Under the pieces are notes generated by a model. That model ran no database searches, was not told the origin of the DNA, and saw only the letters and a list, made by a program, of their open reading frames with translations. DNA of 58,809 nucleotides, the filler included, from Basidiobolus ranarum (taxonomy: Eukaryota), in assembly GCA_040143965.1 (NCBI GenBank). It is 5 parts of 5 records of this genome, joined end to end, with 100 filler letters (N's around TTAATTAATTAA, not from the genome) between each part and the next. Parts side by side here need not be neighbours in the genome. Positions count along the whole stretch, not along the records: positions 11,810 to 23,497 come from JASJQH010000594.1; 4 more parts are not named here. One strand, 5' to 3'. Of this stretch, positions 7,001 to 31,081 are shown in pieces; position 1 is the stretch's first letter; each line of letters begins with the position of its first letter. Made by a program: the position numbers and the translations under genes.

Positions 7001-10000
7001 AGCAAACAACAAATAATTCTGAATCTATCATAAGTGGATGTAGATCTGCCAATTTTTCAGAATCTTCCTATAATGGATTTTCCCATATTAATAAGTATTA
7101 CATAGCGCTCAGACATAAAAAAAATGATATTGATCAGCTTTCCGTGTAGTAAAGTTGACTCCTGTAATAATTGCTTCCAATAAGTTCCCATACATCTACT
7201 CATTGATGAAAAAAATACATGACAAGATTGAAAGTACTTGTTTCTGGAGATTTCTTCCATTTCTATTATGATCAAAGTGTTTTGCTCCAAATGGGGTCCA
7301 CTAAGCAGTATATTTGTATTGATCAGGCTGGTTACATGCAATGCAAAAAGATAGAATGAGTCCAGATCAGAGCTTTTGGGACCAACTGATAGTGAAATAA
7401 TTGCGGGAGACCCTCATATCCAAGATCATCAACACTCCTATGAAAGACTCTGTCATATATAGGGAGCAAAATATCCTCTATCAACTAATCGGTCCATATT
7501 GAATATTACAACTTATGTGACTTGATATTAGGCAATACGCAGAGGTAGCTCAATGCTGGCTTCCTTATAAAATAATCAAGTAACCTGACCAATTATATAT
7601 TGAAGTTAATTATCTTTACCATATATATTATCCACATCTCTATATATCTACTTGATAAAGCAAAGCAAAGTCGCCAAGGATCACTCAGCCAAATAAAGCT
7701 TGGCCACATATTGCAATATACCATTCATACATAAATTACTACCCAAAAATTGGCAATATCATACTCATAAGTTCAAAATCTTTTAAATTATCCTTAAGAT
7801 TACTCATTTTATTAACTCCAATCTTCTGAGCACAACACAATTGTTGGTTTTCTGTAGTTCCACACAAAAGTACAAATACCTTAGTTTGAGTCAATTAACA
7901 AGTACTTTTTGGACATGATTTGATTAGTGTAAACACACAAACTTTTATGAAACATGAAACAACAATAAGTAAAATCGTAATGTAAGCAGCTTGCGTCCTA
8001 TCTAAAATAGTATTTGGACATGTAGTGCTAAATATAGAATTTTGGTGCAAAAAGCATACAGGCTCCAAACTGGTTCACTAACTTTAATCAATATAAGTTT
8101 ATCTAATATCACCGAAAGTGGTGCGATCACAGCCATAATATCGAAGACCACGATTTGGGTCTACTTCAGCTATATGACAAATATCAAGATAGTACATACA
8201 GGGAATGCCAAGCATCATCTGAAAAATGCATGCAAAGAAAGTGAATCAGTTATAATACATCGTCCATCTGAAGTAACCGCATGAAGCTTGAGTTCGAATT
8301 AACGTTCAACCGAATAAAGAATCTCACAGTTTTTCTATTATCAAGTCGTGTCTCAGCTCATAGGAAGTCCATTCAATATCAATATCATTCGGAACTACCT
8401 GTAGTCTACTTAGATACTAAAATCCACCTTTCCCAAAATACAAATAGATGGGAGGAATCGGATTTACGCGAACGACATCATGCAGATCTCAAGCAATTAT
8501 GATCTAAATGGAACTGAAGCAATAAACTTGCTGATGGAGATATTATGAATGACCCTTCAATCCAAGAGCAAAGAGAGCCTCCTGAACGGGAGAGCTGCGA
8601 TAAACATCTCGATATTCTTCAAGTCAATTCCATTTTAAATCCAACAAGGTCGTAGTAGTGAAAATCGCTCAATCAGCCTTTTGTTCTGACTACTTCTCAG
8701 CAGTTGTGCCTCTGAGTTATCTGCCATCCATATACGGTGAGTTTTTATTTGGTCCACATTTACGGAGTCATAGCATGATACTAAGTAGCCAAGATCTATA
8801 TTCAAATATATATTCACTGCCATTCTAGTGTATGTTGTGAAGTTGCGAAATGAAAATAAACAATCTACTGCTTTATAATGAAAATATAGGCATCTATGCT
8901 GCGTATTTGTATACAGTTAGGCAACATAATAATTGGTCCGAATGAATGATTTTTACCAAGTGTTATCTACTAAGTATCATTGAATGACTTTACAATATCA
9001 ACGGGTTCAGAGCAACTTTCAAAAGCTCTATTAGGTAGACATCCACTCTACTTTAGCCTAAACATCTCCTTGATGTTGAAATACTAATACATTCAATTGT
9101 CATACGTTGAAAATAAACTATTTTACTGTTTATTCACCATTTGTGGCAAAATACGTGGTTTGTATGCATCAAATGCTATTTGTTACAGAATACCTGAAAG
9201 TACTAATATTAGTTTCGCTTTCATACTTAACTTGAATAATATTACTAACGCATCACTCCATCCACAGAAATTTTCCAAAATGCCGATGAGGCCTCTGCTA
9301 TGGCGTCAATTCGGCATATCCATATTCACAACCATTATACATGGGGTTTTTCGAGATTTACTACCCTACTTAACTACCTCCCATAACAAAGTAGCCTTGC
9401 CTTAACTATCCTTACTTCTTACTTTCCCGAGAGCTTTTTAACCTTTGCTTAAAAAGTTGCTTATCTTCTAACCCTTAAACTTTTCTTCCCTGAAAACTAC
9501 CCCTTTTGTTTCTCACTTATGTTTTAATATATGTTTTAAAGCCTGGTTTGAATTTTTGGTAATCTTGAATACCTGGTATCCCACCCATATTATTCCCTTT
9601 TATATTTCTCACACATATTCTCACAACAGCAACCGGCGAAAAAGTTGGTGCTGATAGAGTTATAAGTAGTACAAACAGGCGGACCAGTAGTAAAAGTACC
9701 CCCATTAAGGGTGCTACAATATATTTGGTCATTTGATCATCATCAGCTCTATAGCAGCTTTCGCAGTTTAGCTTTATAGCACTAACTAAAGTCGCTGACA
9801 GCATCACTGATAGGATAAAATAACTTTCATAGTAAAATGCCACTAATTGAGAAATTTAACCCACTGTAGATACCTCATATGTTCGGCTGTTTCATCTTTT
9901 AAAAAACTAGGTTTGCCTAACTGTTTTGCTTTCAATATAGCCACTTACTGTGTGTTGGCCGCTGGTAAATGATATATTATTGTACTTGGTGTATCTTCGT

Positions 10001-11632
10001 TGTTTTTACTACGGTAACTCAGTATTTCCAGCTGCAACCAATAGCTTTAATAGCACCATGATAGCTAATGAAGAGATTCATAATACTAACAATGTTTTCT
10101 TCAGTTACTGGAAAGTTATCTACTACTGAGAAAGTGGATGCAGCCTACTGGAAACGCGATATAGTTTTCCCAGCTTTATCTTTTAATGTAATACAATCGA
10201 TGCTAGAACATACTAGCGAGTATGGAAGTCGTAGTTAAAATTGACTCGCATTCAATATTTTGTAGCTCCATTAATAAGATCCTGTTAAACCTCAGCCAGA
10301 AAAATCCCACTATCAAGTATCTCCTTCAAGTCGTAGCGAACATGCATTAAGAACGATTTTCGATGCGGCTGGAAAGTTCTTAACTTATGAGTTTTTTTAT
10401 AGATTTAGCAATGTCCAATTCTTTGGAAGTGTTAGATGCCTCCTCTGCTAATATTTCAAGCAAGACGGGCCACTACCTTACTGATCTACTAATCTATACT
10501 TGGAATCATTCGAAATTTTACAAGTCAGAGTATCAGATTTAAGGCGATGAGATTTTAACTCTAATAAAGGTTCGGTTCAATGAGTCCAGCCATCTTATTG
10601 TATAGATAATATATACAATATTCTGCTTGTAGTAATTGCATAGTTATATTGGAATGGATCTACAAATCCAGAAGCCCTGTCTTGCAGGGGAATCATCAGC
10701 AACCCTAGTACTCCCATAACCTTAACAACTCCATACCCGATTAATGAATCATTAACAGGTTGGCAGAATGCCAGGAGGTTGGATATTGTTTCAGTGCAAG
10801 AGGAGATAACAATTCAACAAGTATCTACTGAAGCCATGTTTCAATTTGACCGAGATTAAGCATCCTATGCACTAAACTTGCCTCTTTCAATATTTCCAAT
10901 GTTTGACCATAGCTTGTCATACCTCAACTATGTATCACTGGGACTAGTTATTGCCAACCTTGTCCGTTAAAATCGCCCGACTTGTCAATCTCAATGGTAC
11001 ACTCCGCCTAGTACTACGAAAGATATATTTCTATCATCTATCAATGCAAGTGAAACTGTGAGCTGAAGCTTCAGCGATGATGTCATTAATTCGTAGCCTA
11101 TATATATGTATCTATATCCCAGGTACAGGAAAATTCATGAGGCAAAAGGAAAATCACAGAATCGGTTTATCCATAGTAGATAAATCAAGCCAATGATTTG
11201 ATAACAATTAACAGAATAATCAATTCTAAAATATAAAAAACTATTTCTCAATGCTGCTCCCTTTCAATCTACCTTCCACCAAGGAAATGGATCATCCTGT
11301 ACCACGACGATCTTTTCCTTTTTACTTCCAACGAAAAGAAGCTTAAAGCTCCAAGTAAGACGAGCATAAAGTGACCGTTATAATGCTGGTGTGGGTAAAT
11401 TTACAAACCAATGGTAAAGATGAATTTGAGTACAGAGACGCCATACAAATTGTGAAATACTGGACTTGTTGATTTTATGGCTATGCACGTGTACAAGTCT
11501 CCTTATTCTCATTCCCACGAGCTATATTACCTATTCACAAGACCTCGGGTACATGCTATCTGAAAGCGCTTCTGAATCATATATAAGCAGCTGCATCACT
11601 AGTATTTACCTCATTCGCATTTATCTACAAGT

Positions 11633-11709
11633 ATGGTCAGTTTCCGCATATTCGCTCTTGGTACCCTGGCTGCAGCTGTATTATCAACTTCGCTTGCTGA
11701 GGCGCAAAA
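11633..11709 (+). CDS. N-terminus of a secreted protein, truncated by the contig end
   Basis: MVSFRIFALGTLAAAVLSTSLAEAQ resembles a signal peptide; TATATAA at about 11580. Confidence 0.6.
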
Positions 11710-11809
11710 NNNNNNNNNNNNNNNNNNNNNNNNNNNNNNNNNNNNNNNNNNNNTTAATTAATTAANNNNNNNNNNNNNNNNNNNNNNNNNNNNNNNNNNN
11801 NNNNNNNNN
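11710..11809. other. Artificial contig linker (N44-TTAATTAATTAA-N44)
   Basis: 100-nt spacer with stop codons in all six frames. Confidence 0.98.
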
Positions 11810-11918
11810 TTGACAAAACTATAAATGTCAACTTTCTACTCAATAAATCAACAAGTGAAAACCACTAATTCCTCTAATTCTCCAAACCACTTCCAACAGG
11901 CTCCCAAATACTTTAACA
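11810..11918 (+). repeat. 3' fragment of copia-family LTR, cut by the contig start
   Basis: Near-identical to 25495-25603; ends CTTTAACA. Confidence 0.9.
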
Positions 11919-12269
11919 GGAGCACTATTATCAGGAACAGCTCTTTTGTGGTTTGCTCCTTTGATGGAAAGTCAATCTCCACTTCTAGAACATACAACTT
12001 GACATTCAGTCTGGTGTTGACTCTGAAGATATCTGGGAAGAACTTAATACAGAGTGGCAGAATATGGCAGGGTATCCACCAGATAGCTGGAAGAATGTTG
12101 ATTCAGCATCATTAATACAATGGTGGGCTTTGATGGAGATACTGATACAAACTTGTGTTGGATATGAGCTAAACCTTGGGTATGAAGAACTCTATAAAAA
12201 TATTCAGGAGAATACATCAAAGAAACTAGGGATTTTGAAGGTGACAAATTAATGTTCAAGTGGTAAATG

Positions 12270-13405
12270 TATAAAATTTAAGTTATGTTTTTGCACATTT
12301 GCTGATCCATCATTTTCTGAGATTGTGGCCAATGATGTCCAACTATTTTGTAAGATCTTGAAGTTTCACTCTTGAAACCAAAAAATTGATTAAAATCAAA
12401 TCTAACTTGATAATTCAATGACAGTAAATTTATGGTCAATCCAAAATGGATTAAAATTGCAATGGTTTTCTTAGAATAACAATCCTCAAATTCCTGTTAG
12501 GGATGATGGTGAACTGACACACTATCTTGGAATCCAAAATAAGATAGATAAAGCTACCAAGACAATAACTTTAAACCAGTCTATGTATATCCTAGATATG
12601 CCAAAGAAGTTTAAAATGAAAGAATATAGTCCAAAGTCTACCCCAATGGAGACAAATCTAAACTTGACCAAAAATGGCTAAAATCAGATGGTCTTGGATT
12701 CAAATGGAAGCCAGAAATTTCCTTAGCAGCCTATGATTGGTAGTTGGATTTATATCATGGTTGGAACATGGCCAGTTATTGCATATTCTGTGGGAGTTAT
12801 GAGCCAATATCTTCAAAATTATGGATCTGATCAAGTCATAGCAGTTAAGCAGATTATCAGATATTTGAAAGATACTATGGATCTCTGCTTATAGTACACA
12901 TATTCTGGATCTAACTTTGATCTGATGAATATACAGATGCAAATTGGGGAAGAGATATTGAAGAGAGGAGATCTCAATACAATACTTATTTCTTAGCTGT
13001 AATGCAGCTATTTCTTGGAATTCAAAGATACAACCTACCATATCACTTTCAACAACAGAAGCAGAATCCCTGGCAGTCTGTGAAGCAATAAAAGAAGCAA
13101 TACAGTTAAGAAAACTCTCAACAGATTTAGGTTGTTCTCAAAATTCACCAACTACATTATTTCAGGATGATCAAAGTTGTATCAAATTAGCTAAGAAACC
13201 CATATTTCATAATAGAAAAAAACAAATAGATGTTAGACATCACTTCATTAGAGAGACTATAGTAAATAAGCTTATTGACTTAACCTAGTATTCTGCTGAA
13301 GACATAATTGCTGATATATAACCTCAGATAATTAGCTAGACAGAAATTTGAGATATTTAGACCTTTCTTAAGATTAGTTTATATGACTATTTAGTTGAAG
13401 GAGAG
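12270..13405 (+). mobile_element. Degenerate Ty1/copia reverse transcriptase-RNase H remnant with PPT
   Basis: Frameshifted motifs TITLNQSMYILD, STPME, MIGSWIYIMVGTWPVIAYSVGVMSQY, TDANWG, AISWNSKIQPTISLSTTEAE, QDDQSCIKLA, IDVRHHFIRE. Purine tract GAAGGAGAG sits directly before the LTR. Confidence 0.92.
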
Positions 13406-13746
13406 TGTTGAAATTAGCTTTGCTTAAACACCTATATAGTCATATATAACTTAGTATTAGCAATCCTACATTTCATCAAAATAATATCCATTATTATCAA
13501 TTGGAATTTACTTAGAATATTTTTACTAACTTAGAAGTTCTCAGATACATAGATTTTTCAAACTGGTGCTAGAAAACCCAAGCATTGCACACATGTTTTT
13601 GGGACCTTCCTTAACAAATTCTACACATTAGTTTACTTACATCATGATAAAAGTATAAATGTCAACTTTCTACTCAATAAATCAACAAGTGAAATTCACC
13701 AATTTCTGTGATTCTCCACATCACTTCTAACATGCTCCCAAAAACA
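13406..13746 (+). repeat. 3' LTR of copia remnant (~345 bp)
   Basis: Starts TGTTGAAATTAGC after the PPT; aligns with the other LTR copies. Confidence 0.9.
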
Positions 13747-13754
13747 TGAGCACA

Positions 13755-13971
13755 GAATGTGTCAAGGAAGGTCCCAGGAATATGTGTGCAAAGTTTGGGG
13801 CTTCCAGCACAAGTTTGAAAAATTCATATATTGGAAAACTTACATGTTGATAAACAAATTGTAAGAAAGTTCCTATTGATAATCAAAGGTAATATCTTAG
13901 TGACATGTAAGATAACTAAACACTAAGCTAAATATGACTAAATAGGTGTTTAGACAATGCTGATTTCAACA
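13755..13971 (-). repeat. Partial LTR of the same family, inverted
   Basis: Reverse complement of the LTR 5' two-thirds; ends GATTTCAACA. Confidence 0.85.
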
Positions 13972-14904
13972 AAGGGCACCATGATGGTGAAGATGGCATA
14001 TTTAGCTGTGCACATGGACTATCATGAGAGCTAGGTTATGTAAAGAAAGCACTTATATATGTTTTATTGTGTAGGTAGCAACTAAAACTGTAATATCTTA
14101 AGGGTCTTGTCAGGTGTCTCAAGGATGCAATAATCGTAGTTGAATAGCTCTGGAATGAACTGTTTTACAGGTCTATCTCTTGCCTCTTGGGTCTGTATGA
14201 GAAAGAAATTGTGGGAGGATCATGACATAATGGGATAGACTTTATATGTTGGAGGCAACTTATGAGAATGTTTTTTGGTAACTTTATTCTTAAGAGAATA
14301 TGGTGACTAAGATAGTAGAGAAGTATATCAAATGTTTGAGATATTTGGGAGTCTTTGTGACAGGATGTAATAGATAAGTGGGTGTAATAAGACATAGTTG
14401 TTATATAGATATAGAGATATTTGTATTTAGAATATAGGAGCTATTGATACATTGCTTTCTATTTCAGATATATGTATTATAACTCAAGTTAACTATGATG
14501 TTGAATAAAGATTAATTAAGCCTCTTGAAAAATCTAAGGACTGGTGAAGCATGAGGCAATGTCCAGCTTTCTGTTGAATAATATAGTGGACCATGGCAAA
14601 ATAATATTTTGACTTTGGTGTCCATTGAGAATGATAAGATAAAATGAGTGGACTTGTTCCATTGTGCCAGGATTTATTGGACCTTGGCTCAATATATTAG
14701 AGAAATTGTGATTGAAATTGATCATGCCGGAGGGTGCTGGATAGTGCCTAACTATGCTGCATATATTTTAGAATACTTTATCCAATACAATATTTACAGC
14801 ACAATCTGGCACTATCACAGGGAACAAGTCCAGTATATCCAATCAAAAATAACTGAAAACTTGGCCAGCAGGTTCTTGAACAAGGATGTACTAGTAATGA
14901 GCCG

Positions 14905-15063
14905 GTGAAACCAATAGGTGAGTGGGTATTAGCAAAAGGTTACCCGTTCAACTTGAACTCTACCGTAACAGCAGGTATTGTCAGTACAAAGGTATCAAAC
15001 GGTCAAGATGGAAGTATGCAATTTTTCATCCTGATATATGCTGCTTTCAACCAGGATAACGGC
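14905..15063 (+). pseudogene. degP: Relic of bacterial DegP/HtrA serine protease (Bacteroidetes-like)
   Basis: [26 protein letters not shown]...FILIYAAFNQDNG matches the HtrA consensus [26 protein letters not shown]...FIQTDAAINxGNSGG. The catalytic Ser motif is destroyed and both ends of the gene are missing. Confidence 0.88.
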
Positions 15064-15098
15064 AAAAGTAAGATTATTCATAGCAAAATAATTTGTTA

Positions 15099-15106
15099 TA
15101 ACTTTG
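15099..15106 (+). promoter_or_regulatory. Bacteroidetes -7 promoter element (TAnnTTTG) upstream of the sigma pseudogene
   Basis: TAACTTTG(CC) about 24 bp before the sigma ATG. No clean -33 TTTG is present. Confidence 0.55.
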
Positions 15107-15129
15107 CCGCCCAAGTCTGTTTTAGAAGA

Positions 15130-15766
15130 ATGAGACAACTAAAAATTACCAAAAGCAGCACTAGCAGAGTGAGCGCTTCTCATGACAAGTATTGCAGGAA
15201 ATCTAGGGTTAGCGCATGCGCGAGGGTGACCGTATTGTGCTTGAAAAGCTAAAGTATGCCAAGTCACGTTTCGTTGTATACCTAGTCAAACAGTATCAAA
15301 ACAAAGGTTTGATTTTGCCCGACTTGATTAGGGCTCTCGAAAAGTTCGCTGAAACATGTAATTCTAAGTTTGTCAGTTACGCGGTATGGGGGATACGTTA
15401 ATTCATTCTGTAAGCTTTGACAGAGCAGTCGCATAACGTGTGACTTCCATTGAGCCAGGAAGAACTTGCCGATGAACTGAAAATCCCTGATATGCTTAAG
15501 GTATCCAAGCGCCATATTTCGGTGGCACATCTTTCGTAGAAAGAGAAGACAACAACTTGCTCGCATCGCTGGTCGATGTCGATTCTCCGACAGACTACTC
15601 TTTAGCGAACGAGAGAAATTGAAAGAGCTCTTGCTACATTACCCGATAGGGAAAAAGTGAGTATACTGATTTTTTTCAATATCAGACAACAAGAAATGAC
15701 ATTAGAAGAAATCAGAGATAAATTCGGTTTAAACAAAGTAAATTACGCAAATCTTATTTGGGATAA
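15130..15766 (+). pseudogene. rpoD: Bacteroidetes-type primary sigma-70 factor (short RpoD/SigA) pseudogene
   Basis: Collinear pieces MRQLKITKS..SASHDKY, EGDRIVLEKL, RFVVYLVKQYQNKGLILPDLI, KFVSYAVWGIR*, EELADELKIP, RHISV, FVEREDNNLL, REIERALATLPDREK, QEMTLEEIRDKFGL, KSYLG*. It carries several stops, frameshifts and deletions. Confidence 0.95.
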
Positions 15767-16222
15767 AAGAAAAATCGGTTTCTGATAAATGGAAGGAATT
15801 AAAAATCGGGGGGGGGGTTGTTATGGATATTTTTTGGCACTTGCTTTCATGATTTGTCTGGAACTTACCCTCCAAGACTATGAAAAAGCAATTTTGGTGT
15901 GGCTGGTTCCTGTAATGATTATTTGATTCGGCTATATGGTATTAGAGAACTCCTCCTAAAACTTGTTCCTCGCTTTCCTTTTATAGTTGTTTCCATTGGT
16001 ACTTATTTCCATTTATATTTTACTAATAAGGTAATTCCCTACAAATATGCCAGTCTTTCCAAACTTTGCTCGTAAATCCTATTTTTAACCTTTATACGGA
16101 TTTTCGCAGCTATAAAAAAGGGAATGTGCTTCACTTTCTATTAAAATAAACCCCTTAACATTAATTTCTACTAGAAACCATCAGAAACTATTGGTTTCTT
16201 TGCTTCGTAAAACCCAAGAAAT

Positions 16223-17881
16223 ATGAGATATGTAATTGTTGGTGGTGTGGCCGGTGGAGCCACAGCAGCCGCTCGATTGAGAAGAGCTTATGAGATGGCT
16301 GAGATCATTTTATTGGAGAAGGGTCCCCATATCTCCTATGCCAACTGTGGTTTACCTTATTATATAGGCGGTGCCATTGCCGAACGTAAAAAGCTGTTAG
16401 TGCAGACACCGGAAACATTCGGTAAGCGTTTCCGTATTGACGTACGGATAAAGAATGAAGTAATCGCCATTTATCCGGAGAATAAATACCTGACCATCCG
16501 TAAGGCAAGTGGAGAAGAATATAAAGAAAGCTATGACAAGCTTCTGTTGTCCCCAGGAGCCAATCCCGTGAAACCACCATTGGAGGGTATTAATTCCGAA
16601 GGCATCTTTACGCTGCGCAATGTGGAAGATACCGACCATATCAAAGATTATATCACTGAGAAGAAAGTGAAGCGTGTCGTCGTCGTAGGTGCCGGTTTTA
16701 TCGGACTGGAAATGGCGGAGAACCTGCATCAGGCCGGTGTAGCTGTTTCCATAGTCGAGATGGGCAACCAAGTTATGGCTCCTATCGACTTCTCTATGGC
16801 TGCATACCTTCATCAACACTTAACGCAAAAAGGCGTATCTCTTAATCTCGAAGAAGGCGTTACCCACTTTCGGCGCACAGACAGCGGTATCACTGTTTTC
16901 CTAAAAAGTGGCAAGACTATTCCTACCGATATGGTCTTACTCTCTATCGGTGTGCGTCCAGCCACGGCATTGGCGCAACAAGCAGGCTTGAGGTTGGGAG
17001 AGATGGGTGGCATCTGGGTGGATAAACACTTGGAAACCTCCAAAAAGGATATCTATGCAGTAGGTGATGCCATTGAATATCCTCATCCGTTGACTGGGAA
17101 ACCGTGGCTAAACTATCTTGCCAATCCGGCTAATCGCCAAGGTCGTATCGTAGCCGATAACATGGTGTTTGGCAATACCGTATCTTATGAAGGAGCTATC
17201 GGTACTTCTATTGCTAAAGTATTCGACATGACTGTAGCCTCTACGGGACTTGCAGCCAAGCACTTAAAGCAATGGGGCATAAAATATCAGAGTTCGGTAA
17301 CTCACTCCTCTTCCCATGCCGGGTATTATCCGGATGCTTTGCCTTTGACGCTGAAACTGACTTTTCACCCGGAGAACGGTAAGCTTTATGGCGCGCAATG
17401 TGTGGGTTACAAAGGTGTGGACAAACGTATTGACCAGATAGCCGGACTCATTAAACGTGGTGGGACCGTACATGACCTGATGGAAACAGAGCACGCCTAT
17501 GCACCTCCTTTCTCATCTGCCAAAGATCCTATAGCCATTGGCGGATATGTGGCTTCAAATATTATCAGCGGCGCCATGCCAGCGATTTCTTGGCGCGAAC
17601 TCGTTAAAGAGAAGGAACAGGTGATGATGATCGATACCCGTACTGCCGAGGAATATTCGATCGGTTCCATTCCGGGTGCCATTAATATTCCCTTGAATGA
17701 AATGCGCGAACATCTTACTGAAATCCCAACGGATAAGCCGGTTATCCTATTCTGTGCCATAGGACTACGCGGCTATCTGGCTCAGCGCATCCTGATGGGA
17801 CGTGGTTATCGTAATGTACGTAATCTGATAGGCGGTTACAAGACCTATTCTATCAGTAATGCTCCAGTTCTCAAGACCTAA
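16223..17881 (+). CDS. cdr: CoA-disulfide reductase-rhodanese fusion (CoADR-RHD / Npsr-like persulfide reductase), bacterial origin, intronless
   Basis: 552 aa; FAD motif GGVAGG; redox Cys in SYANCGLPY; NADH motif GAGFIG..VE; IYAVGD; HAGYYP; YAPPFSSAKDP; C-terminal rhodanese with active-site FCAIGLRG. Visibly higher GC than the flanks. Confidence 0.96.
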   Translation: MRYVIVGGVAGGATAAARLRRAYEMAEIILLEKGPHISYANCGLPYYIGGAIAERKKLLVQTPETFGKRFRIDVRIKNEVIAIYPENKYLTIRKASGEEYKESYDKLLLSPGANPVKPPLEGINSEGIFTLRNVEDTDHIKDYITEKKVKRVVVVGAGFIGLEMAENLHQAGVAVSIVEMGNQVMAPIDFSMAAYLHQHLTQKGVSLNLEEGVTHFRRTDSGITVFLKSGKTIPTDMVLLSIGVRPATALAQQAGLRLGEMGGIWVDKHLETSKKDIYAVGDAIEYPHPLTGKPWLNYLANPANRQGRIVADNMVFGNTVSYEGAIGTSIAKVFDMTVASTGLAAKHLKQWGIKYQSSVTHSSSHAGYYPDALPLTLKLTFHPENGKLYGAQCVGYKGVDKRIDQIAGLIKRGGTVHDLMETEHAYAPPFSSAKDPIAIGGYVASNIISGAMPAISWRELVKEKEQVMMIDTRTAEEYSIGSIPGAINIPLNEMREHLTEIPTDKPVILFCAIGLRGYLAQRILMGRGYRNVRNLIGGYKTYSISNAPVLKT

Positions 17882-18319
17882 ACTGAGATTGTTTCACCAG
17901 CATCCGCGCCTTGAAATTCTCCTGTAAAACAGCTAGTAGACACGAAGTTCTCCTGTATTCAAAACATTCAATCATCCTGCAATACAAATTACGAAACATG
18001 TAATTGTTGTTTAACACTGACAAAAAACATGAGGTTTCTATTAGATATATCACCATAGTAAATAAATTTTATTGGTAGTAATATGCTCACATGGATTGTG
18101 CTAACCACAAGTCGGTATTACTACCATAAACGTAATTCACCCAGCATAAGCATCTAATTTCCCAATTTTTCCAATCCGGGACAATAGCTGAAGATGTCCC
18201 TACCTGATGTAATCATCATTGTAAATTTCCATGGACATGCAATTCATTCCACCAACCTCAGCTACCAGTGATGAACTTAGTTAGAAGTATGATATTTGCT
18301 TCAATTACAATAAGAACAG

Positions 18320-18494
18320 AAACATGTGCTAGAAGCCCCAAACTTTGAACACATATTTCTAGGACCTTGCTTAACACATTCTACATATTATTTTTTTTGC
18401 ATCTTGACAAAATTATAAATGTCTACTTTCTACTCAATAAACCACTAAGGGAAAACCACCATTTTCTCTGGTTCCCCAAACCACTTCCAACAGG
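18320..18494 (+). repeat. Partial LTR of the copia family
   Basis: GTGCTAGAAGCCCCAAACTTTG...CCAAACCACTTCCAACAGG aligns to the LTR 3' half. Confidence 0.85.
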
Positions 18495-19995
18495 AGATCC
18501 TTTCAATTATCCAACATGGTATCAGCCATGATTGCCACTGAAGAAGACGCCCAATTTCTGGACTGAAAATATCTGGACAATTTAACAAGTGTTACTGCTG
18601 CGTTAATTACTACAAATAGTTGGACTATGTCTTACCAGTTAAACTATCTCAAGTTGAATCAATGCTACAATATGTCGCTTGTGCCAAATAATGAGCATGG
18701 AATGTTCTTTTTCAACAAGATTGGTGTTAATAACTATAGGCACTGTTTTTACAGTGTGTTCAATTATCTTGAAGACCGTGTATGCGTGGCCCAGCATCAG
18801 GGATGGAGTAATAGTGTGAACACTCTACTCCCAGCCACGAACAACATGATAAACAGCGGTATTTTCAGTACTGTAGGCTTTGAAGCCAGCGGGAGGATAT
18901 GCTACACCATACTGCAATATGATTAACCCTCCAAACTCGGAAATCAAAAGACATCAGTGTTCTCGATAAATATTGTTAACAGCAATTTCGATAAAGCTCT
19001 ATATAGATCTCTTTATCTATATTCAACAGTTCAAAATAGGTTTGTTCTAGAGATTGTCTACTGTTAGTATGGTATACAGCTCTGTACAGATGGTAAACAT
19101 TGAAATTCCACAAAGCAAATTCACTATCTCTGGACCCTTACCTAGGACTTGGGTTGATCCAAAGCTCCGGTGAAATAGTAATATTGACTACATAACAAGG
19201 TATGTAAAGCTAACGTATTACTTTCAAAATGATAAACCATAGACATCGTACTTTGTGCATGTATCTTAGGCTTAGGGTTAGCTAAAGAAATAAAATAGCT
19301 CTTATCAGTTGATTAATTGAATTGATTGTAAGTGTGATCATTTTTAATCAGATTAATTGAATGCAAATCTCAAGATCAGCCATGAACCGTACTACTTAAT
19401 CTATCTCCATCAACCAACACATCTCCTTAACCAACCACCTTAAAGATCGTTTAAATGGTATTCAGATTGATTGCATGAGAATCAAAGACAAGCCACTAAA
19501 CAAATCCTTTTCCATTAACCAAATCTATCTATATTAACCAACCAATTTAACGATCAGAGTGTCCATAAAAGGGATATTTAGTAGTGTATTTATATTTACT
19601 GGTGATATGCTGAAATAGGTAAGTATATCAATTCCGTATATTAACTCCTTCACCAACATAAGGGCAAGTGCTTAGTAATTGAAAAAGTAACGATGCTTAC
19701 TGAGAAAGAGAATGTTTATTTTAGAAATGTGGCAGCCAAATCAGTTGAACTGGATATTGCCAAATAAATTGAATTGATTAGTGAATTGACTTACTAAGCT
19801 GTGGCATTACTAATATTGTTGTAATGGCGTTATAGTTGAAATATAAATGATACTGTATTCACCATGACTATTCAAGAAGGTGACCAGATTCGAAAACTGA
19901 AGTATCTTGATGAATTGGGTACTTAGATAAATTTACCCACTAATCCATTAATAACCATACTCGAAATCAACCTGTTTAGAAAATCTGTGAATGAA

Positions 19996-20081
19996 GCCCG
20001 AACTCACCTGGGGAGTGTAAACCATATGGAAGAGCTTGGGCCCGAACTCACCTGGGGAGTGTTAACCATGTAGATGAGTTT
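19996..20081. repeat. Two-copy tandem repeat, 44-bp period
   Basis: GCCCGAACTCACCTGGGGAGTGT at 19996 and 20040. Confidence 0.9.
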
Positions 20082-20345
20082 AACACATAAAGTTGCTATC
20101 TATTTCCCTTTTTGCTTGTTTCTGAATAAAATGGTGAAAGTATATTTCATGGTAAAATCGAAGTGCTGTCTGGCTCTGATAGTAATCGTTGCAATTCCAT
20201 TTTTACAATCACGTGACAATTTTACGAATGGCTGACAGAACTAGTTATTATTAAATAGAAGTAATGCAAGTTATGTAATAGAAGAGATAAAAGAGGTAGT
20301 GGTAGTGGTTTAATAAAGAGTTTATTGACTTTAAATATTTCACTT

Positions 20346-21815
20346 TTAGGCTAAATTTAAACCCTTGGCAACTCGTGCACCAAGGTCAGCATCAGCCTTA
20401 CGGAAAATCTCTAGCTGGCGTTTTTGAAGGACTACATTGGCACCGCTCAAATGGTCAACAAGATTGTCCACCATGCGGGTCTTGGCATCCTCTGATTGAA
20501 TTTGATACAAGTTACCTGCTTGGACGTAGTCATCATCTTCTACGGGTACTACATATCTATCTACAGCGCCGTGAACCTGTTCCATACTCTTGGTTTGAGG
20601 GTAGGATTGACCATGGATGTGAAGTTGCTTGAAAGTTCCCTCAAACATGCTATTAGGCTCATAGTTTGGTGCTCCAGCAAAGTTGCCATTGACAGTCATG
20701 AATCCATCACGTTGATGATGGAAAACTGGGCACTGTGGTCGATTGATGGGAATTTGACTGAAATTGGGACCTAAACGGTAGCGATGGGCGTCAGGATAGG
20801 CGAAAATTCTTCCTTGCAACATCTTGTCAACAGAAGGTTCAATACCGGGAACCATACTGGAGGGTGAGAACGCTACTTGCTCAGTCTCGGCAAAGTAATC
20901 TTCGGGATTTCTATTCAATACCATCTTACCAACCTCTTGAAGGGGGAAGTCCTTATGAGACCACACCTTGGTAATATCGAAAGGATCGAAGCGATAGCTA
21001 GCAGCTTGCTCAGGCTCCATAACTTGAATATGTACTGTCCATGATGGATAATCACCCTTCTCAATGGCATTATACAAATCTTCGGTACCATAGTCTGGGT
21101 TCTCACCAGCCATCTTGGTAGCCTCTTCACGTGTGAAGTTCTGGATACCTTGATCTGTCTTAAAGTGCCATTTGACAAATTTGAAGTTGCCATCTTTATC
21201 AACCAACTTCAGAGTATGGCCGTAGTAACCATTCATGTGGCGGAAGCCTTTAGGAGTGCCACGGTCGGAAAATAAGACTAGCACTTGGTGAATTGTTTCA
21301 GGTGACAGACTCAAGAAATCCCAGAAAGCATCAGGATCTTTGAGATGGGTTTTGGGATTACGCTTCTGAGTATGAATGAAATCAGGAAATTTGATGGGAT
21401 CACGAATGAAAAAGATTGGTGTGTTGTTGCCAACCATATCCCAATTTCCTTCTTCGGTATAGAACTTAACTGCGAAACCGCGAGGATCACGAGCCAAATC
21501 AGCTGATCCACTCTCTCCTCCAACAGTGGAGAAGCGGGTAAAAATTGGTGTACGCTTACCTACTTCAGAGAGAAATTTGGCCTTGGTGAGATGAGAGATA
21601 TCCTTAGTTACTTCAAAGTAACCATGGGCTCCAGCTCCTTTGGCATGAACAACACGTTCTGGGATACGCTCGCGATTGAAGTGAGCAAGCTTCTCAACAT
21701 AATGGAAATCTTGAAGTACGATCGGTCCCTTGCGGCCTGCAGTCATACTGTTCTGGTTGTCTTCAACGGGATCACCGTTAGTAGTGGTCATCGTTGGTGG
21801 TGGGTTGAAGGTCAT
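20346..21815 (-). CDS. Monofunctional small-subunit heme catalase, intronless, ~489 aa
   Basis: [51 protein letters not shown], heme ligand [12 protein letters not shown]. Start placed at ATG 21815 (MTFNPPP). No obvious PTS1. Confidence 0.97.
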
Positions 21816-23117
21816 GTTGATAGTGAGAACAGGAAGTGATATGTAACACAGTCGTGTAATTATCTGGGGTTTAGCTTTATAGGAATTGGAAGCAGGAAGT
21901 ATATATATTAAGATACAATGACAATAATACAATCGATTATTTTTCGGATTGCTGCTTAATCCGATGATTCTATTGAAATCCCTAATTCAATATAAAAACC
22001 TTGTTTAACCAGTAAATCGCAGTTGTTATCAGTGGCTCTTCTAGACACACTTGTCTATGACGCTGTTCCTGGTATCCGTTATTCAAGAATTGTAATGGAA
22101 CTGACTGATTGGTTACTAAGACTACTTGACCCATGACATGATCTAGTTGAGTCGAAATGGAATGTCCTTTTGGGTAAATACCAGACATTCCCTCTGATTA
22201 GTAGTAGGGATTTGAAGGACCAATTGAAGAACAATCAATAGAGCATTATTGTAGTATACCACCATATTGCGGCTTATATGTTTATTGCTGAATATGCAAA
22301 TCTATCTCTTCTTGGGCTAAAGTCAATTCCAGTCCAGACAAAGTGTTAGGCTCAATAAATAATCCCCAAACAGAAATGATAAAATTTCCATTTTCAGCCC
22401 ATCAATCTGTAATTAATTGGTGTATTCCTTCCATTCGTAACCTTTCATTCACTACCTTCTATTCGCTATCATTCATTCGCTACCTTCCATTCGCTATTGT
22501 GCTTAGAAAGCAAATAGACGAAAAGGGGTTTGTTCTGCTATTCAAATGTCACGCAACCACAAATTCCATCTAGGCATGCCATCGAAATCATCTTTTGACT
22601 ATTTAGGACACTTGATAGAAAATCATATTGCTTTTCTCACTTGCCTTGTCATCGGGATGGTGCAGGAGTGCTTCGCTGGATTTTTAGATGAAAATCCTGC
22701 TTGCATAATAGAAGAGAGCGGCTTCTAACCCTAAGCAGTGCGATATAACCTAGTTCAGTTTGGTGTTAGTGTTTCTATATCATCATTGTTTTGAGTATTT
22801 TCCGCTCTCTTCCAAAATGTCAATTTGTTTGCATTGAAACTTTTGGCGAGGTTTCACTTGCATTCTGATAACTATTTCCAGAAGTGTGCAATTATTTGTA
22901 TTATTGTTGTGTGTTTGTATTATCGGTGTGAATTTCCAGTGACAGTCCGTTTGTAGTGGTAGATTTTACTAAATTAGCTGTACGCTAGTGAGTTTTGGGA
23001 AACTCCCTTTTCATGTTGAATGTTATTTTAATCATTCATACCGCATTTGATCAATGCTTGTCCTGACACCAAACATTTGTCCCGTTTGATTTGCTACCTA
23101 ATCTCCCAGTCTTGTCG

Positions 23118-23262
23118 ACTTAGGGGGATGAAAAGCACCAAGTGGTGTGGACTCTATTTAGCTTATATGTTAATCCAAACAAAGTGACACTTAGGAGGGG
23201 ATGAAAAGCACCATATGGTGTGGACTTTATTTAGCTTAAATCCTAATCTAAACAAAGTGACA
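23118..23262. repeat. Two-copy ~72-bp tandem repeat
   Basis: GGGGATGAAAAGCACCA..TGGTGTGGACT.TATTTAGCTTA...AAACAAAGTGACA occurs twice; a related deleted copy lies at 24240-24299. Confidence 0.88.
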
Positions 23263-23497
23263 ATCAAGACATCAATCTTTTAAGATATTGTGACAATACT
23301 GGATCAAATCCATGCTTTACTTGATGACCAATGTAATCAAGTTCAGAGGATGTAAATATAGTGTTAAGGGGCAGAGGTGGTAAGCAGAAAGGAAGGTACT
23401 CAGTACAAACTAGATGGACAATAGGACAAAAACCTGGAATAATGGGAATCAAGAAAGGTGTCTTAGAGGCAAGGTATTGCTTCCAAAGGTCTAGCTG

Positions 23498-23597
23498 NNN
23501 NNNNNNNNNNNNNNNNNNNNNNNNNNNNNNNNNNNNNNNNNTTAATTAATTAANNNNNNNNNNNNNNNNNNNNNNNNNNNNNNNNNNNNNNNNNNNN
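23498..23597. other. Artificial contig linker
   Basis: N/TTAATTAATTAA spacer. Confidence 0.98.
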
Positions 23598-23738
23598 TTC
23601 CTCTTCACCCCAATCGTACATCTTTCTTAGAAAAAACTGATCCAATTGCCATAGATATATATACATATAAAAATGGGCTGCAAATGAGGTGCTCTTGTGG
23701 TTTGCAAGTCTAGGTCACTCGGCAAAATCTAAATGTGT

Positions 23739-23791
23739 AAGGTGTATGGAAGGTGTATGGTGTATGGTGTATGGAAGGTGTATGGTGTATG
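23739..23791 (+). repeat. GGTGTAT / GGTGTATGGAA microsatellite
   Basis: Six GGTGTATG cores. Confidence 0.85.
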
Positions 23792-24305
23792 ACGACACAT
23801 TCTCACATTTTGTATCAAAAATCACCTCCATATAAGCCTGAGACTGGGTTTATTACGCGGCAATGATACAAGGTAATATCAAAATACTGACCAATTACAA
23901 GTAAAACTCTAGTATTTGTACATTTGGGATAATTATAGTGTTGAATTGGGTTAATGAAGGTTATAGCAAGATGTGTGTCAATTATGGGGGCTTTTAGAAG
24001 ATTTTTTAATGCACTTGAGAAAACACATCATCAAAATATGAATTTGCAATATATCCAACAAAAATAATGGCTTAAAAATCAACCAAGTGGAGAATCAATA
24101 TGCATGAATAACTTGGTACAATATTAAGAGTTAAGATCGCAGTACACGAGCTGATTATATAAAGTAGAGCAAGATAGTGGATAAGTAGACCTGAGCACGC
24201 TATATCACTTGAGCACATTACATCAAATCACTGATTGACGGGGATCAAAAGCACCTTATTTAGCTTAATTACTAATTTAAACAGAGTGACAGTTAGGACA
24301 ACAAC

Positions 24306-24644
24306 TGTTAGAGTATTTGTGGACCCTGTTGGGAGTGGTTTGGAGAAATAGAGAAATGGGTAGTTTTACATACTAATTTATTGAGTAAAAAGTTGACATT
24401 TATAGTTTTATTGAGTTATACAGAAACTAACATGTATAATGTGTTAAGTAAGTTCCCAGGAATATGTGGTTAAACTTTGGGGCTCCTTTGCAATATCTAT
24501 ATATCTGAGAACTTCTAAGTTGTTAAAAGTATCCTATACAAGTTCCAATATTGAATAAAGAGTAATATCTTGGTTCAATAAAGGACAAATGAATACTAAG
24601 CAATATATGACCATATAGATGTTTAGGCAACTCTAATCTCAACA
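24306..24644 (-). repeat. 3' LTR of a second copia remnant
   Basis: TGTTA...CAACA termini on the plus strand; the PPT (AGGGGGAG on the minus strand) is adjacent at 24645-24652. Confidence 0.88.
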
Positions 24645-25603: not shown

Positions 25604-25614
25604 CAGCCAACATG

Positions 25615-30992: not shown

Positions 30993-31081
30993 TATCAAGA
31001 GGAATAATCTAGAAATTAAGACTCAGCTATTCTGCATAGTATAATTCAAATCCTGAGTACATCTCGAAATATCAGCTAGTA

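What the first reader, a model, noticed from the sequence alone, without database searches (positions are those of the whole stretch)
14905..17960. Multi-gene Bacteroidaceae-like chromosomal fragment embedded in a fungal contig: neighbours decayed, one gene retained
Seen: three co-oriented bacterial genes lie in about 3 kb (degP relic, sigma-70 pseudogene, intact cdr-rhodanese). There is no gap between them and the host copia LTRs on either side (13406-13971, 18320-18494), and the same LTR family occurs on other contigs carrying clearly eukaryotic genes. Known: the short MRQLKITK...KSYLG sigma is the Bacteroidetes housekeeping sigma, which a living bacterium could not carry in this ruined state, so contamination is unlikely. 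Inference: DNA-level transfer from a gut anaerobe followed by selection on cdr alone. From memory the protein most resembles Phocaeicola/Bacteroides homologs. This would fit a gut- or dung-associated fungus.
Basis: partly seen in the sequence, partly recalled or inferred. Interest (0 to 1): 0.92.

Follow-up and report, generated by a model that had tools for sequence, protein, structure and literature searches.

The report
Bacteroides DNA fossil in Basidiobolus genome
A gut-dwelling fungus (Basidiobolus) carries a piece of Bacteroides chromosome in which the neighbouring bacterial genes have rotted away while one thiol/sulfur-reducing enzyme gene has been kept open, a clear but not unprecedented case of bacterium-to-fungus gene transfer.

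Summary
The window is five ~11.7-kb contigs joined by N linkers, and the finding lies on piece 11810-23497. Window 14914-17908 is collinear with a Bacteroides chromosomal segment (degP, rpoD, small ORF, C11 peptidase, four-domain oxidoreductase of the BmoR operon). Only 65 codons of degP remain. rpoD is a ruin, with 21% of Bacteroides-invariant bases changed, 10 indels and 7 in-register stops. The two middle genes are deleted. The oxidoreductase survives as a 552-codon open frame with no indels and a codon-position pattern typical of purifying selection.

It is not fully intact. It keeps the CoA-disulfide-reductase-like and rhodanese domains, with both catalytic cysteines, but has lost the TusA and DsrE domains of the ~820-aa donor protein.

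Fungal repeats flank the fragment, and a fungal catalase A gene lies 2.5 kb away on the same contig. The organism is Basidiobolus ranarum or close kin.

The ORF forms one clade (100/99) with longer copies from B. ranarum (667 aa) and B. meristosporus (4 copies), nested inside Bacteroides. This fits an old transfer followed by duplication, so it is not "one gene retained".

Gut-bacterial transfer into Basidiobolus is already published, so this is a new, well-documented member of a known kind. Read-level proof of the junctions could not be obtained.

The parts
11810..23497 (.). The 11,688-bp contig that carries the finding. The window is five contigs joined by N44-TTAATTAATTAA-N44 linkers.
   Evidence: N runs at 11710-11809 and 23498-23597. 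The database record of the ORF's protein (P0002) gives a contig length of 11,688.
12475..13288 (+). Degenerate copia-like pol remnant (fungal retroelement relic).
   Evidence: Weak RVT_2 match at 12475-12681 (E 9e-4, below cut-off). Region 12805-13745 is 76% identical to 24313-25245 on another contig, inverted.
13406..13972 (.). LTR-like repeat: a ~350-bp unit (13406-13755) followed by an inverted partial copy (13754-13972).
   Evidence: 84% identical to 25256-25606, 81% to 33280-33612 and 77% to 43981-44318. Internal inverted arms at 13457-13622 and 13754-13919.
13973..14913 (.). Unassigned AT-rich DNA between the repeat and the bacterial fragment (left junction at about 14914).
   Evidence: No significant match to the Bacteroides loci, to the other four contigs or to Pfam for 2 ORFs tried.
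14914..15063 (+). degP/HtrA relic: about 65 codons from the middle of the protease domain. The 5' 190 codons are absent and the 3' half is deleted.
   Evidence: tblastn of L001 DegP residues 191-255 (of 511), 52% identity. blastn 14915-14990 matches L001 2008-2083 at 85.5%. The next homology jumps to L001 3093, so 73 bp stand where the donor has 1009 bp.
15064..15809 (+). Primary sigma factor (rpoD, 286-aa Bacteroides type) pseudogene with its flanking bacterial intergenic DNA. ATG at 15130, original TAA at 15764-15766.
   Evidence: 75-77% nt identity to Bacteroides rpoD, which are 91-96% identical to each other. 125 of 595 invariant sites are changed. There are 9 deletions, 1 insertion and 7 in-register stops.
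15810..16136 (+). Spacer left by deletion of about 1.5 kb (small ORF plus C11 clostripain-like peptidase of the donor). Faint relics survive at both ends, and a G10 run lies at 15808-15817.
   Evidence: 15827-15918 matches L004 4252-4355 (65%, E 6e-6). 16040-16221 and 16055-16112 match the end of the peptidase gene and the intergenic region in L002 and L001. Donor gene identities come from Pfam.
16137..16222 (+). Bacterial 5' intergenic/promoter region of the oxidoreductase, still alignable.
   Evidence: blastn alignment to L001 starts at 16137 (L001 5900), 86 bp before the ATG.
16223..17881 (+). Open 552-codon gene: FAD/NAD(P)H disulfide reductase (CoADR-like) fused to a rhodanese domain. It is the truncated descendant of the Bacteroides BF638R_0572-type four-domain oxidoreductase.
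   Evidence: Pfam domains. 85-87% aa and 77-80% nt identity to Bacteroides with no gaps. PDB 3ICR at E 3e-174 over residues 2-543. Cys42 and Cys511 motifs are kept.
17882..17908 (+). Nine codons past the stop that still resemble the rhodanese-TusA linker of the fungal and Bacteroides homologues. All homology ends here (right junction).
   Evidence: tblastn of B. meristosporus P0003 runs through the stop to residue 562 at 17908. Read-through alignment: 5 of 9 identical residues. No TusA or DsrE relic was found downstream.
17909..18319 (.). Unassigned DNA between the bacterial fragment and the next repeat.
   Evidence: No significant hits.
18320..18494 (+). Partial copy (175 bp) of the same LTR-like repeat, in direct orientation to 13560-13734.
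   Evidence: 80% identical to 13560-13734 and 85% to 25411-25585.
20346..21815 (-). Fungal catalase A gene (489 aa, no intron), the vertical anchor of the contig.
   Evidence: Pfam Catalase E 1e-200. 98% identity to a partial B. ranarum catalase A, 78% to B. meristosporus and 62-69% to other early-diverging fungi. Start coordinate.

Best explanation
An ancestor of today's Basidiobolus lineages took up a piece of naked Bacteroides chromosome of at least about 6 kb and integrated it into repeat-rich nuclear DNA. The piece ran from within degP, through rpoD, a small ORF and a C11 peptidase gene, into the four-domain oxidoreductase of the BmoR operon.

Genes useless to a fungus decayed neutrally. 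degP was cut to 65 codons, rpoD is riddled with stops and deletions, and the two middle genes were deleted. The oxidoreductase was kept under purifying selection and was later duplicated.

All fungal copies lack the DsrE domain and the MarR repressor gene. The copy in this window has also lost TusA. What remains is a two-domain enzyme (FAD/NAD(P)H reductase with one redox cysteine, plus a rhodanese with its persulfide-carrying cysteine). This has the same architecture as characterised CoADR-RHD, NADH-persulfide-reductase and CoA-persulfide-reductase enzymes.

Inferred function: NAD(P)H-driven reduction of CoA persulfide, CoA disulfide or other sulfane sulfur. This would maintain thiol balance in the sulfide-rich, redox-fluctuating gut.

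What is shown: origin, synteny, decay of the neighbours, constraint on the ORF, and a common origin with the other Basidiobolus copies.

What is inferred: expression, substrate, adaptive value, and a single transfer event.
For: Synteny at DNA level with Bacteroides loci:
- 6 of 6 Bacteroides genome loci share the gene order.
- 44 of 47 (sigma) and 43 of 46 (degP) metagenome loci with enough upstream DNA also share it.
- Relics of the deleted middle genes survive.

Phylogeny: the window ORF, B. ranarum P0243 and three B. meristosporus copies form one clade (100/99), nested in Bacteroides.

Same-fragment selection contrast:
- Sigma: 125 of 595 Bacteroides-invariant sites changed, evenly over codon positions (19.5%, 21.1%, 22.9%), plus 10 indels.
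- ORF: 56 of 1059 changed (5.4%, 2.4%, 19% by codon position) and 0 indels in 1647 bp. Poisson P is about 5e-9 at the sigma indel rate.
- Only 12 of 371 Bacteroides-invariant residues are changed.
- Pairwise dN/dS is 0.04-0.06.

Decay is AT-biased: GC>AT 0.234 versus AT>GC 0.109 per site. This fits residence in an AT-rich fungal genome.

Fungal context: catalase A is on the same contig, and the repeat family is shared with two other contigs.

Enzyme: the ORF aligns full-length to solved CoADR-RHD (3ICR, E 3e-174), Npsr (3NTA) and CoA-persulfide reductase (8A56), with both cysteines in place.

Donor gene biology: BF638R_0572 is repressed by BmoR, and its loss raises diamide sensitivity (PMC6158253, abstract and passages). 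A MarR gene follows the donor gene in L001.

Transfer from gut bacteria, including Bacteroidetes, into Basidiobolus is published (PMC7466969, passages).
Against:
- About 940 bp and 410 bp of unassigned DNA separate the fragment from recognisable fungal repeats.
- Expression is untested.
- The copy is truncated and has about twice as many lineage-specific replacements as the long B. ranarum copy (26-31 versus 14-16, p 0.01-0.09 over six outgroups). Constraint may now be relaxed.
- TIGR03385 (the CoA-disulfide reductase equivalog) scores 486, below its 578.8 cut-off, so the substrate is not settled.
- A single transfer is inferred from monophyly and the shared lack of DsrE only. The DNA of the other fungal loci was not available.
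- GC3 of the ORF (0.46) lies within the Bacteroides range (0.31-0.58), so it shows no clear amelioration.
Confidence: 0.78

Rival explanations
1. The window copy is a redundant paralogue on its way to becoming a pseudogene. The function is carried by the longer CoADR-Rhd-TusA copy or copies in the same genus, probably in the same genome. On this view the open frame only reflects past selection.
For: A 667-aa B. ranarum copy (P0243, 90.4% identical) and four B. meristosporus copies exist. The window copy ends at a stop in the rhodanese-TusA linker, with linker homology continuing past it. It has the longest branch in the fungal clade (0.10 versus 0.046 and 0.065) and roughly twice as many private replacements as P0243. 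There are no expression data.
Against: There are no frameshifts or internal stops in 1656 bp, although the neighbouring relic has 10 indels in under 0.9 kb. Changes at invariant first and second codon positions are 4-9 times rarer than at third positions. Private changes at Bacteroides-invariant residues number 7, versus 5 and 6 in the other fungal copies. Both catalytic cysteines are kept. Two-domain enzymes of this length are active in bacteria and archaea (PDB names; PMC7969121 abstract).
Confidence: 0.15
2. There were several independent transfers. Different Basidiobolus lineages or loci each acquired the gene from one unsampled Bacteroides lineage (for example a herptile-gut species). On this view the fungal 'clade' only mirrors the donor.
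For: The fungal stem (0.058) is no longer than many Bacteroides branches, and the relationships inside the fungal clade are an unresolved trichotomy. No sampled bacterium is closer than 88% aa or 80.1% nt, so the donor lineage is unsampled.
Against: All 5 full-length-comparable fungal copies lack DsrE and end within about 20 residues after TusA or earlier, whereas the 28 Bacteroides rows used in the alignment keep it where complete. One origin is the most parsimonious reading (label changes = 1, 100% of bootstrap trees). Two residues invariant in Bacteroides are changed in all three fungal lineages.
Confidence: 0.08
3. Assembly artefact: contaminating Bacteroides DNA was joined to fungal sequence in a short, repeat-rich contig.
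For: The contig is only 11.7 kb and rich in repeats. The junction-flanking segments are unassigned. No reads could be examined. A later reanalysis removed many Basidiobolus proteins as contamination and strongly supported only 7 of 811 reported xenologues (preprint 10.1101/2021.12.02.471044, passages).
Against: A living Bacteroides could not carry its primary sigma factor with 7 stops and 10 indels, nor lose 1.5 kb and 0.9 kb from this conserved block. The fragment is about 20% diverged at neutral sites from every one of 86 Bacteroides loci compared. Its closest relatives are genes in two other, independently assembled Basidiobolus genomes, on contigs up to 195 kb.
Confidence: 0.03

Closest known systems
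Bacterium-to-Basidiobolus horizontal gene transfer (Tabima et al. 2020, PMC7466969; passages read)
   Same: Same recipient genus and same donor ecology (gut Proteobacteria, Firmicutes, Bacteroidetes). The gene is intronless and sits on a scaffold with fungal genes. 'Oxidation-reduction process' is the top GO class among their candidates.
   Different: That study scored single gene models (806 in B. meristosporus CBS 931.73) and emphasised secondary metabolism. Here the decayed co-transferred neighbours preserve the donor's gene order and provide an internal neutral control. Their candidate tables (S4, S5) are supplements I could not open, so I cannot say whether this family is listed.
Bacteroides fragilis BF638R_0572, the pyridine nucleotide-disulfide oxidoreductase of the BmoR operon (Teixeira et al. 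2018, PMC6158253; abstract and passages read)
   Same: The window ORF is a descendant of this gene family. It is 85-87% identical over the CoADR-like and rhodanese domains, nests in the Bacteroides clade, and keeps part of the upstream intergenic region.
   Different: The bacterial protein has four domains (CoADR, rhodanese, TusA, DsrE; about 820 aa) and is followed and repressed by the MarR regulator BmoR. The window copy has two domains and no MarR gene, and it sits in a eukaryotic nucleus.
CoADR-RHD, NADH-dependent persulfide reductase (Npsr) and CoA-persulfide reductase: PDB 3ICR, 3NTA, 6PFZ, 8A56 (names as deposited; PMC7969121 abstract)
   Same: Same two-domain architecture and length. 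Alignment is full-length (E 3e-174 to 1e-109). The reductase cysteine and the rhodanese cysteine are conserved.
   Different: Those are bacterial or archaeal enzymes with assayed activities. The fungal protein is unassayed and arose by truncation of a four-domain form rather than as a native two-domain gene.
Eukaryotic acquisition of a bacterial operon (Wickerhamiella/Starmerella yeasts; bioRxiv 10.1101/399394, title and abstract start seen in listing)
   Same: A multi-gene bacterial chromosomal segment was transferred into a fungus with the donor gene order recognisable.
   Different: There the whole siderophore operon stayed functional. Here four of five genes decayed and only one was domesticated, and the co-transferred genes are functionally unrelated.

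Membership tests
CoADR-RHD / persulfide-reductase subgroup of class I pyridine nucleotide-disulfide oxidoreductases | N-terminal FAD-binding Rossmann fold and a second NAD(P)H-binding Rossmann fold | tested here: met
   Pyr_redox_2 E 1.9e-63 (residues 2-285) and Pyr_redox E 2.9e-16 (residues 151-223)
CoADR-RHD / persulfide-reductase subgroup of class I pyridine nucleotide-disulfide oxidoreductases | Single redox-active cysteine in the conserved S-x-A-N-C-G-L-P-Y stretch | tested here: met
   ISYANCGLPYY with Cys42, aligned to the same stretch of 3ICR and 3NTA. That this Cys is the catalytic one is from recalled literature.
CoADR-RHD / persulfide-reductase subgroup of class I pyridine nucleotide-disulfide oxidoreductases | Dimerisation domain | tested here: met
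   Pyr_redox_dim E 4.5e-15, residues 331-432
CoADR-RHD / persulfide-reductase subgroup of class I pyridine nucleotide-disulfide oxidoreductases | C-terminal rhodanese domain with active-site cysteine loop (C-x-x-G-x-R) | tested here: met
   Rhodanese E 1.8e-18, residues 463-542. FCAIGLRG (Cys511) aligns with the loop of 3ICR and 3NTA.
CoADR-RHD / persulfide-reductase subgroup of class I pyridine nucleotide-disulfide oxidoreductases | NAD(P)H-dependent reduction of CoA persulfide, polysulfide or CoA disulfide | not testable with these tools
   Needs an enzyme assay
Canonical CoA-disulfide reductase (NCBIfam equivalogs TIGR03385, NF010037, NF007123) | Score at or above the curated equivalog cut-off | tested here: not met
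   486 versus 578.8, 361 versus 394, and 360 versus 458 bits. It works like a CoADR but is not filed as the equivalog.
Bacteroides BF638R_0572-type four-domain oxidoreductase (BmoR operon) | CoADR + rhodanese + TusA + DsrE in one polypeptide | tested here: not met
   Only the first two domains are present. L001's 820-aa protein has all four. No TusA or DsrE relic was found in the window.
Bacteroides BF638R_0572-type four-domain oxidoreductase (BmoR operon) | MarR-type regulator gene immediately downstream | tested here: not met
   The MarR ORF follows the gene in L001 and is found in L001-L006. tblastn against the window gives only a chance hit (E 0.97).
Bacteroides BF638R_0572-type four-domain oxidoreductase (BmoR operon) | Descent from the Bacteroides clade of this family | tested here: met
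   Nested within Bacteroides s.s. with starred support on the enclosing branches
Horizontally transferred gene in Basidiobolus (criteria of Tabima et al. 2020) | Bacterial phylogenetic placement, and fungal genes on the same scaffold | tested here: met
   Trees. Catalase A is on the same contig, and fungal repeats lie on both sides.
Horizontally transferred gene in Basidiobolus (criteria of Tabima et al. 2020) | Read coverage continuous with the harbouring scaffold | not testable with these tools
Primary sigma factor RpoD (286-aa Bacteroides type) | Uninterrupted reading frame with regions 1.2, 2, 3 and 4 | tested here: not met
   7 in-register stops and 9 deletions totalling 178 bp. Only 139 of 222 fully present codons keep the residue. 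It is a pseudogene.
Ty1/copia LTR retrotransposon (flanking repeats) | RVT_2 reverse transcriptase plus paired LTRs | tested here: inconclusive
   One RVT_2 fragment at E 9e-4, 19.3 bits versus a cut-off of 31.6. A repeat family of about 350 bp lies downstream of it and on two other contigs. No intact element was found.

The most novel reading that the evidence does not exclude
This locus is the original landing site of a Bacteroides chromosomal fragment of at least about 6 kb that entered the Basidiobolus lineage before its major clades split. The ruined rpoD beside the gene serves as a built-in neutral clock, at about 0.25 substitutions per site since entry. The oxidoreductase was then domesticated and stepwise pared from four domains (donor) to three (long fungal copies) to two (this copy). 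This gave a gut fungus a bacterial-type CoA-persulfide/thiol reductase, freed from its MarR repressor, as an adaptation to sulfide and redox stress in the vertebrate gut.
Probability: 0.3. Interest if true: 0.6.

Novelty: new member of a known kind. Interest (0 to 1): 0.45.

Why it matters
Claims of bacterium-to-fungus transfer are often doubted as contamination. A later reanalysis strongly supported only 7 of 811 Basidiobolus candidates (preprint passages).

This locus carries its own proof. The donor's chromosomal gene order survives, and an essential bacterial gene beside the kept one is dead. The dead neighbours also provide a same-age neutral yardstick against which selection on the kept gene can be measured.

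That makes it a useful reference case for three questions:
- how raw chromosomal DNA from gut bacteria enters a gut fungus;
- what is kept and what decays;
- how a multi-domain bacterial enzyme is trimmed in a eukaryote.

It also nominates a concrete, assayable function, CoA-persulfide/thiol reduction, for adaptation of Basidiobolus to the gut.

Tried and rejected
- Whole-genome access: none is held.
- Plasmid origin: there is only one 78-bp degP-like hit in 72,556 plasmid records, so a mobile-plasmid donor is not supported.
- Search for a closer donor or for fungal copies in metagenomes: 80 loci were kept of 195 relatives. All are bacterial-type at 87-88% aa and 78.8-80.1% nt, and none is closer.
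- TusA/DsrE relic downstream of the stop: nothing significant. A 14-residue resemblance at about 18025-18066 (local score 32) was rejected as chance.
- Synonymous-site dating: dS is saturated in all pairs, Bacteroides against Bacteroides included.
- GC3 and codon amelioration: uninformative, because Bacteroides GC3 spans 0.31-0.58.
- Species-divergence yardstick from ORC4: only the B. ranarum protein was returned and none from B. meristosporus, so the test failed. The 78% catalase match to B. meristosporus is probably a paralogue and was not used for dating.
- Rfam and tRNA scans of the contig: nothing found.
- Earlier notes on this genome: none. A word search added nothing relevant.
- Literature: 0 papers hold both 'Basidiobolus' and 'rhodanese'. 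None of the 12 papers listed mentions Basidiobolus.
- Structure prediction and complex prediction were not run. The full-length match to solved structures made them redundant.

Full report
WHAT THE WINDOW IS. The 58,809-base window is not one molecule. N44-TTAATTAATTAA-N44 linkers divide it into five pieces of about 11.7 kb: 1-11709, 11810-23497, 23598-35275, 35376-47048 and 47149-58809. The finding lies on the second piece, an 11,688-bp contig. The protein database lists the ORF's product (P0002) on a contig of exactly that length. No whole genome is held.

THE OBSERVATION. ORF 16223-17881 (+) encodes 552 residues with Pyr_redox_2, Pyr_redox, Pyr_redox_dim and Rhodanese domains. Upstream on the same strand, NCBIfam recognises a DegP/HtrA fragment (E 3e-10) and sigma-70 fragments (E about 1e-6). 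blastn against Bacteroides loci fetched with the ORF shows one collinear series:
- window 14915-14990 matches L001 2008-2083, inside degP;
- window 15064-15809 matches L001 3093-4069, which is rpoD with its flanks;
- window 16137-17868 matches L001 5900-7646, the promoter and first 549 codons of an 820-codon gene.

tblastn gives the same map and finds nothing else bacterial in the window. The bacterial-derived span is 14914 to about 17908.

THE DONOR LOCUS. In L001 and L003 the gene order is as follows:
- a 369-aa ORF;
- DegP (trypsin plus PDZ domains);
- a 286-aa RpoD beginning MRQLKITK and ending KSYLG;
- a 132-163-aa ORF;
- a C11 clostripain-like peptidase;
- an 818-820-aa protein with CoADR-like, rhodanese, TusA and DsrE domains;
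- a MarR regulator.

This order occurs in 6 of 6 Bacteroides genome loci (L001-L006). It occurs in none of the six more distant loci examined (L007-L011, L032). A metagenome scan returned 80 loci. Of 47 with at least 3 kb upstream, 44 have the sigma gene. Of 46 with at least 4.3 kb upstream, 43 have the degP piece.

I read its abstract and passages (PMC6158253). The four-domain gene is BF638R_0572 of B. fragilis. It is repressed by the MarR protein BmoR encoded just downstream, and its deletion increases diamide sensitivity.

The donor segment is ordinary chromosome, since it includes the housekeeping sigma factor. It is not a plasmid: only one 78-bp hit turned up among 72,556 plasmid records.

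WHAT HAPPENED TO EACH GENE.
- degP: only residues 191-255 of 511 remain (52% identity). The 1009 bp that separate this piece from the rpoD upstream region in L001 are represented by 73 bp.
- rpoD: aligned to five Bacteroides genes that are 91-96% identical to each other, the relic is 75-77% identical. It has 9 deletions (178 bp), 1 insertion and 7 in-register stops.
- The two middle genes: 328 bp stand where the donor has about 1.83 kb. Faint relics of the first ORF's start (E 6e-6) and of the peptidase gene's end remain.
- The oxidoreductase: 549 codons align without a gap (85-87% aa, 77-80% nt). A TAA stop follows three codons later. Nine further codons still resemble the rhodanese-TusA linker of the fungal homologues (5 of 9 identical). 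Beyond about 17908 no TusA, DsrE or MarR sequence is detectable.

So 'intact' must be qualified. The gene is open but has lost the C-terminal third of the donor protein.

SELECTION. The dead neighbour is a same-age neutral control.
- At 595 aligned sites invariant in five Bacteroides rpoD genes, the relic differs at 125 (21%). The changes are spread evenly over codon positions (19.5%, 21.1%, 22.9%).
- At 1059 invariant sites of the oxidoreductase, the window differs at 56 (5.3%). By codon position this is 5.4%, 2.4% and 19%.
- Third positions have therefore drifted about as far as the pseudogene, while first and second positions were held back.
- At the sigma relic's indel density, about 19 indels would be expected in 1647 bp. 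None is seen (Poisson about 5e-9).
- Only 12 of 371 residues invariant in 28 Bacteroides proteins are changed.
- Pairwise dN/dS to Bacteroides is 0.04-0.06, though dS is saturated everywhere.
- Decay of the relic is biased towards AT (0.234 versus 0.109 per site), as expected in this AT-rich genome.

IS IT IN A FUNGUS? On the same contig, 2.5 kb to the right, lies an uninterrupted 489-codon catalase A gene (20346-21815, minus strand). Its best matches are all fungal. They are 98% to a partial B. ranarum protein, 78% to B. meristosporus, and 62-69% to Mucoromycota, Zoopagomycota and relatives.

To the left lie a degenerate copia-like remnant (one sub-threshold RVT_2 hit) and a 350-bp LTR-like repeat. 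A 175-bp partial copy of the same repeat lies to the right. The family recurs on two other pieces of the window. These pieces carry GT17, polysaccharide deacetylase and LRR ORFs. An ORC4 exon on the fifth piece is 98% identical to B. ranarum ORC4. The organism is Basidiobolus ranarum or a close relative, a fungus of amphibian and reptile guts.

Contamination is very unlikely. No living Bacteroides could carry this rpoD, and every one of the 86 Bacteroides loci compared is about 20% diverged. Direct read support for the junctions could not be obtained. About 940 bp and 410 bp next to the junctions remain unassigned.

A GENE FAMILY, NOT A SINGLETON. The 90% cluster of the B. meristosporus hit holds four B. 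meristosporus CBS 931.73 proteins (643, 643, 643 and 537 aa, on four contigs) and one B. ranarum protein of 667 aa.

These copies keep TusA but lack DsrE. The window ORF is 90.4% identical to the B. ranarum copy and 88.2% to the B. meristosporus copies.

In trees of 38 rows, the fungal sequences form one clade with 100/99 support, nested within Bacteroides sensu stricto. Inside the clade the three lineages form an unresolved trichotomy.

The simplest reading is one transfer before these lineages or copies diverged, followed by duplication. Contig lengths suggest that the window comes from the genome that also holds the 667-aa copy. If so, that copy is a paralogue.

The window copy has the longest branch and about twice the private replacements of that copy (26-31 versus 14-16, p 0.01-0.09). 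Some relaxation after truncation is therefore possible.

HOW IT PROBABLY WORKS. The 552-aa protein aligns end to end with several solved enzymes:
- CoADR-RHD of the 3ICR entry (E 3e-174);
- the FAD-dependent oxidoreductase 3NTA;
- the Archaeoglobus NoxA-3 (6PFZ);
- a 'coenzyme A-persulfide reductase' (8A56).

It keeps the reductase cysteine (Cys42, ISYANCGLPYY) and the rhodanese loop cysteine (Cys511, FCAIGLRG). Enzymes of this type are proposed to reduce persulfide or sulfane-sulfur substrates to H2S with NADH (PMC7969121, abstract).

It scores below the curated cut-offs of the canonical CoA-disulfide reductase equivalogs (486 versus 578.8 bits). I therefore file it as CoADR-RHD-like rather than as CoADR proper.

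Inferred role: NAD(P)H-dependent reduction of CoA persulfide, CoA disulfide or polysulfide in the fungal cytosol, now without the BmoR repressor. Expression and substrate are untested.

COMPARISON WITH WHAT IS KNOWN. Tabima et al. 2020 (PMC7466969, passages) reported that 2-5% of Basidiobolus gene models look bacterial. Bacteroidetes were among the main sources and the candidates were mostly intronless. They checked coverage and fungal neighbours. The B. meristosporus and B. ranarum homologues are already deposited as fungal proteins.

No paper in the searchable library holds both 'Basidiobolus' and 'rhodanese'. Tabima's candidate tables are supplements I could not open.

What this locus adds:
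- the preserved multi-gene donor synteny with decayed neighbours;
- a quantitative neutral control;
- the series of domain loss from four to three to two domains.

A multi-gene bacterial segment in a fungus is known from the yeast siderophore operon (10.1101/399394, listing only), but there all the genes stayed functional.

VERDICT. It is a new member of a known kind. Interest is moderate (0.45). It is a textbook-quality example rather than a new phenomenon.

Noticed in passing
window 11710-11809, 23498-23597, 35276-35375, 47049-47148: The window is five separate contigs of about 11.7 kb joined by N44-TTAATTAATTAA-N44 linkers. Distances and 'neighbourhood' across these points are meaningless.
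   Followed up: yes
window 20346-21815 (-): An intronless 489-aa catalase A gene lies 2.5 kb from the transferred reductase. It is 98% identical to a partial B. ranarum catalase on a 1.2-kb contig, but only 78% to the best B. meristosporus catalase. That suggests paralogy or an allelic duplicate in a duplicated genome.
   Followed up: partly
window 13457-13622 / 13754-13919; also 25256-25606, 33280-33612, 43981-44318, 24313-24644, 11810-11934: An LTR-like repeat family of about 350 bp occurs on three of the five contigs. Beside the bacterial fragment, two copies sit head-to-head as a 166-nt inverted pair.
   Followed up: partly
window 29606-30965: Nested inverted repeats on contig 3: 123-nt arms at 94% (29606-29728 / 30843-30965) and 320-nt arms at 76% (29814-30133 / 30404-30723). 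This may be a foldback or TIR element.
   Followed up: no
window 53066-55048 (+), 38620-39558 (-), 57838-58482 (+), 26937-28085 (+), 36241-37464 (+): Long uninterrupted ORFs lie on the other contigs: a 660-aa LRR protein, a 312-aa LRR protein, a metallo-beta-lactamase-fold fragment, a GT17 glycosyltransferase and a polysaccharide deacetylase. Whether any of these is itself of bacterial origin was not tested.
   Followed up: no
proteins P0003, P0241, P0244, P0242 (B. meristosporus CBS 931.73): The transferred gene is present in four copies that are 99.2-99.6% identical, on four contigs. One gene model (P0242, 537 aa) also departs from homology right after the rhodanese domain, near where the window copy ends.
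   Followed up: partly
window 15808-15817: A run of ten G sits exactly where homology to the DNA downstream of Bacteroides rpoD stops and the 1.5-kb deletion begins.
   Followed up: no
window 23124-23292 and 24253-24321: Short direct repeats of about 73 bp lie at the start of contig 3 (86% between adjacent copies).
   Followed up: no
locus L002: A MAG labelled 'uncultured Muribaculaceae' carries a locus that is syntenic with, and phylogenetically inside, the Bacteroides s.s. group. The label may be wrong.
   Followed up: no
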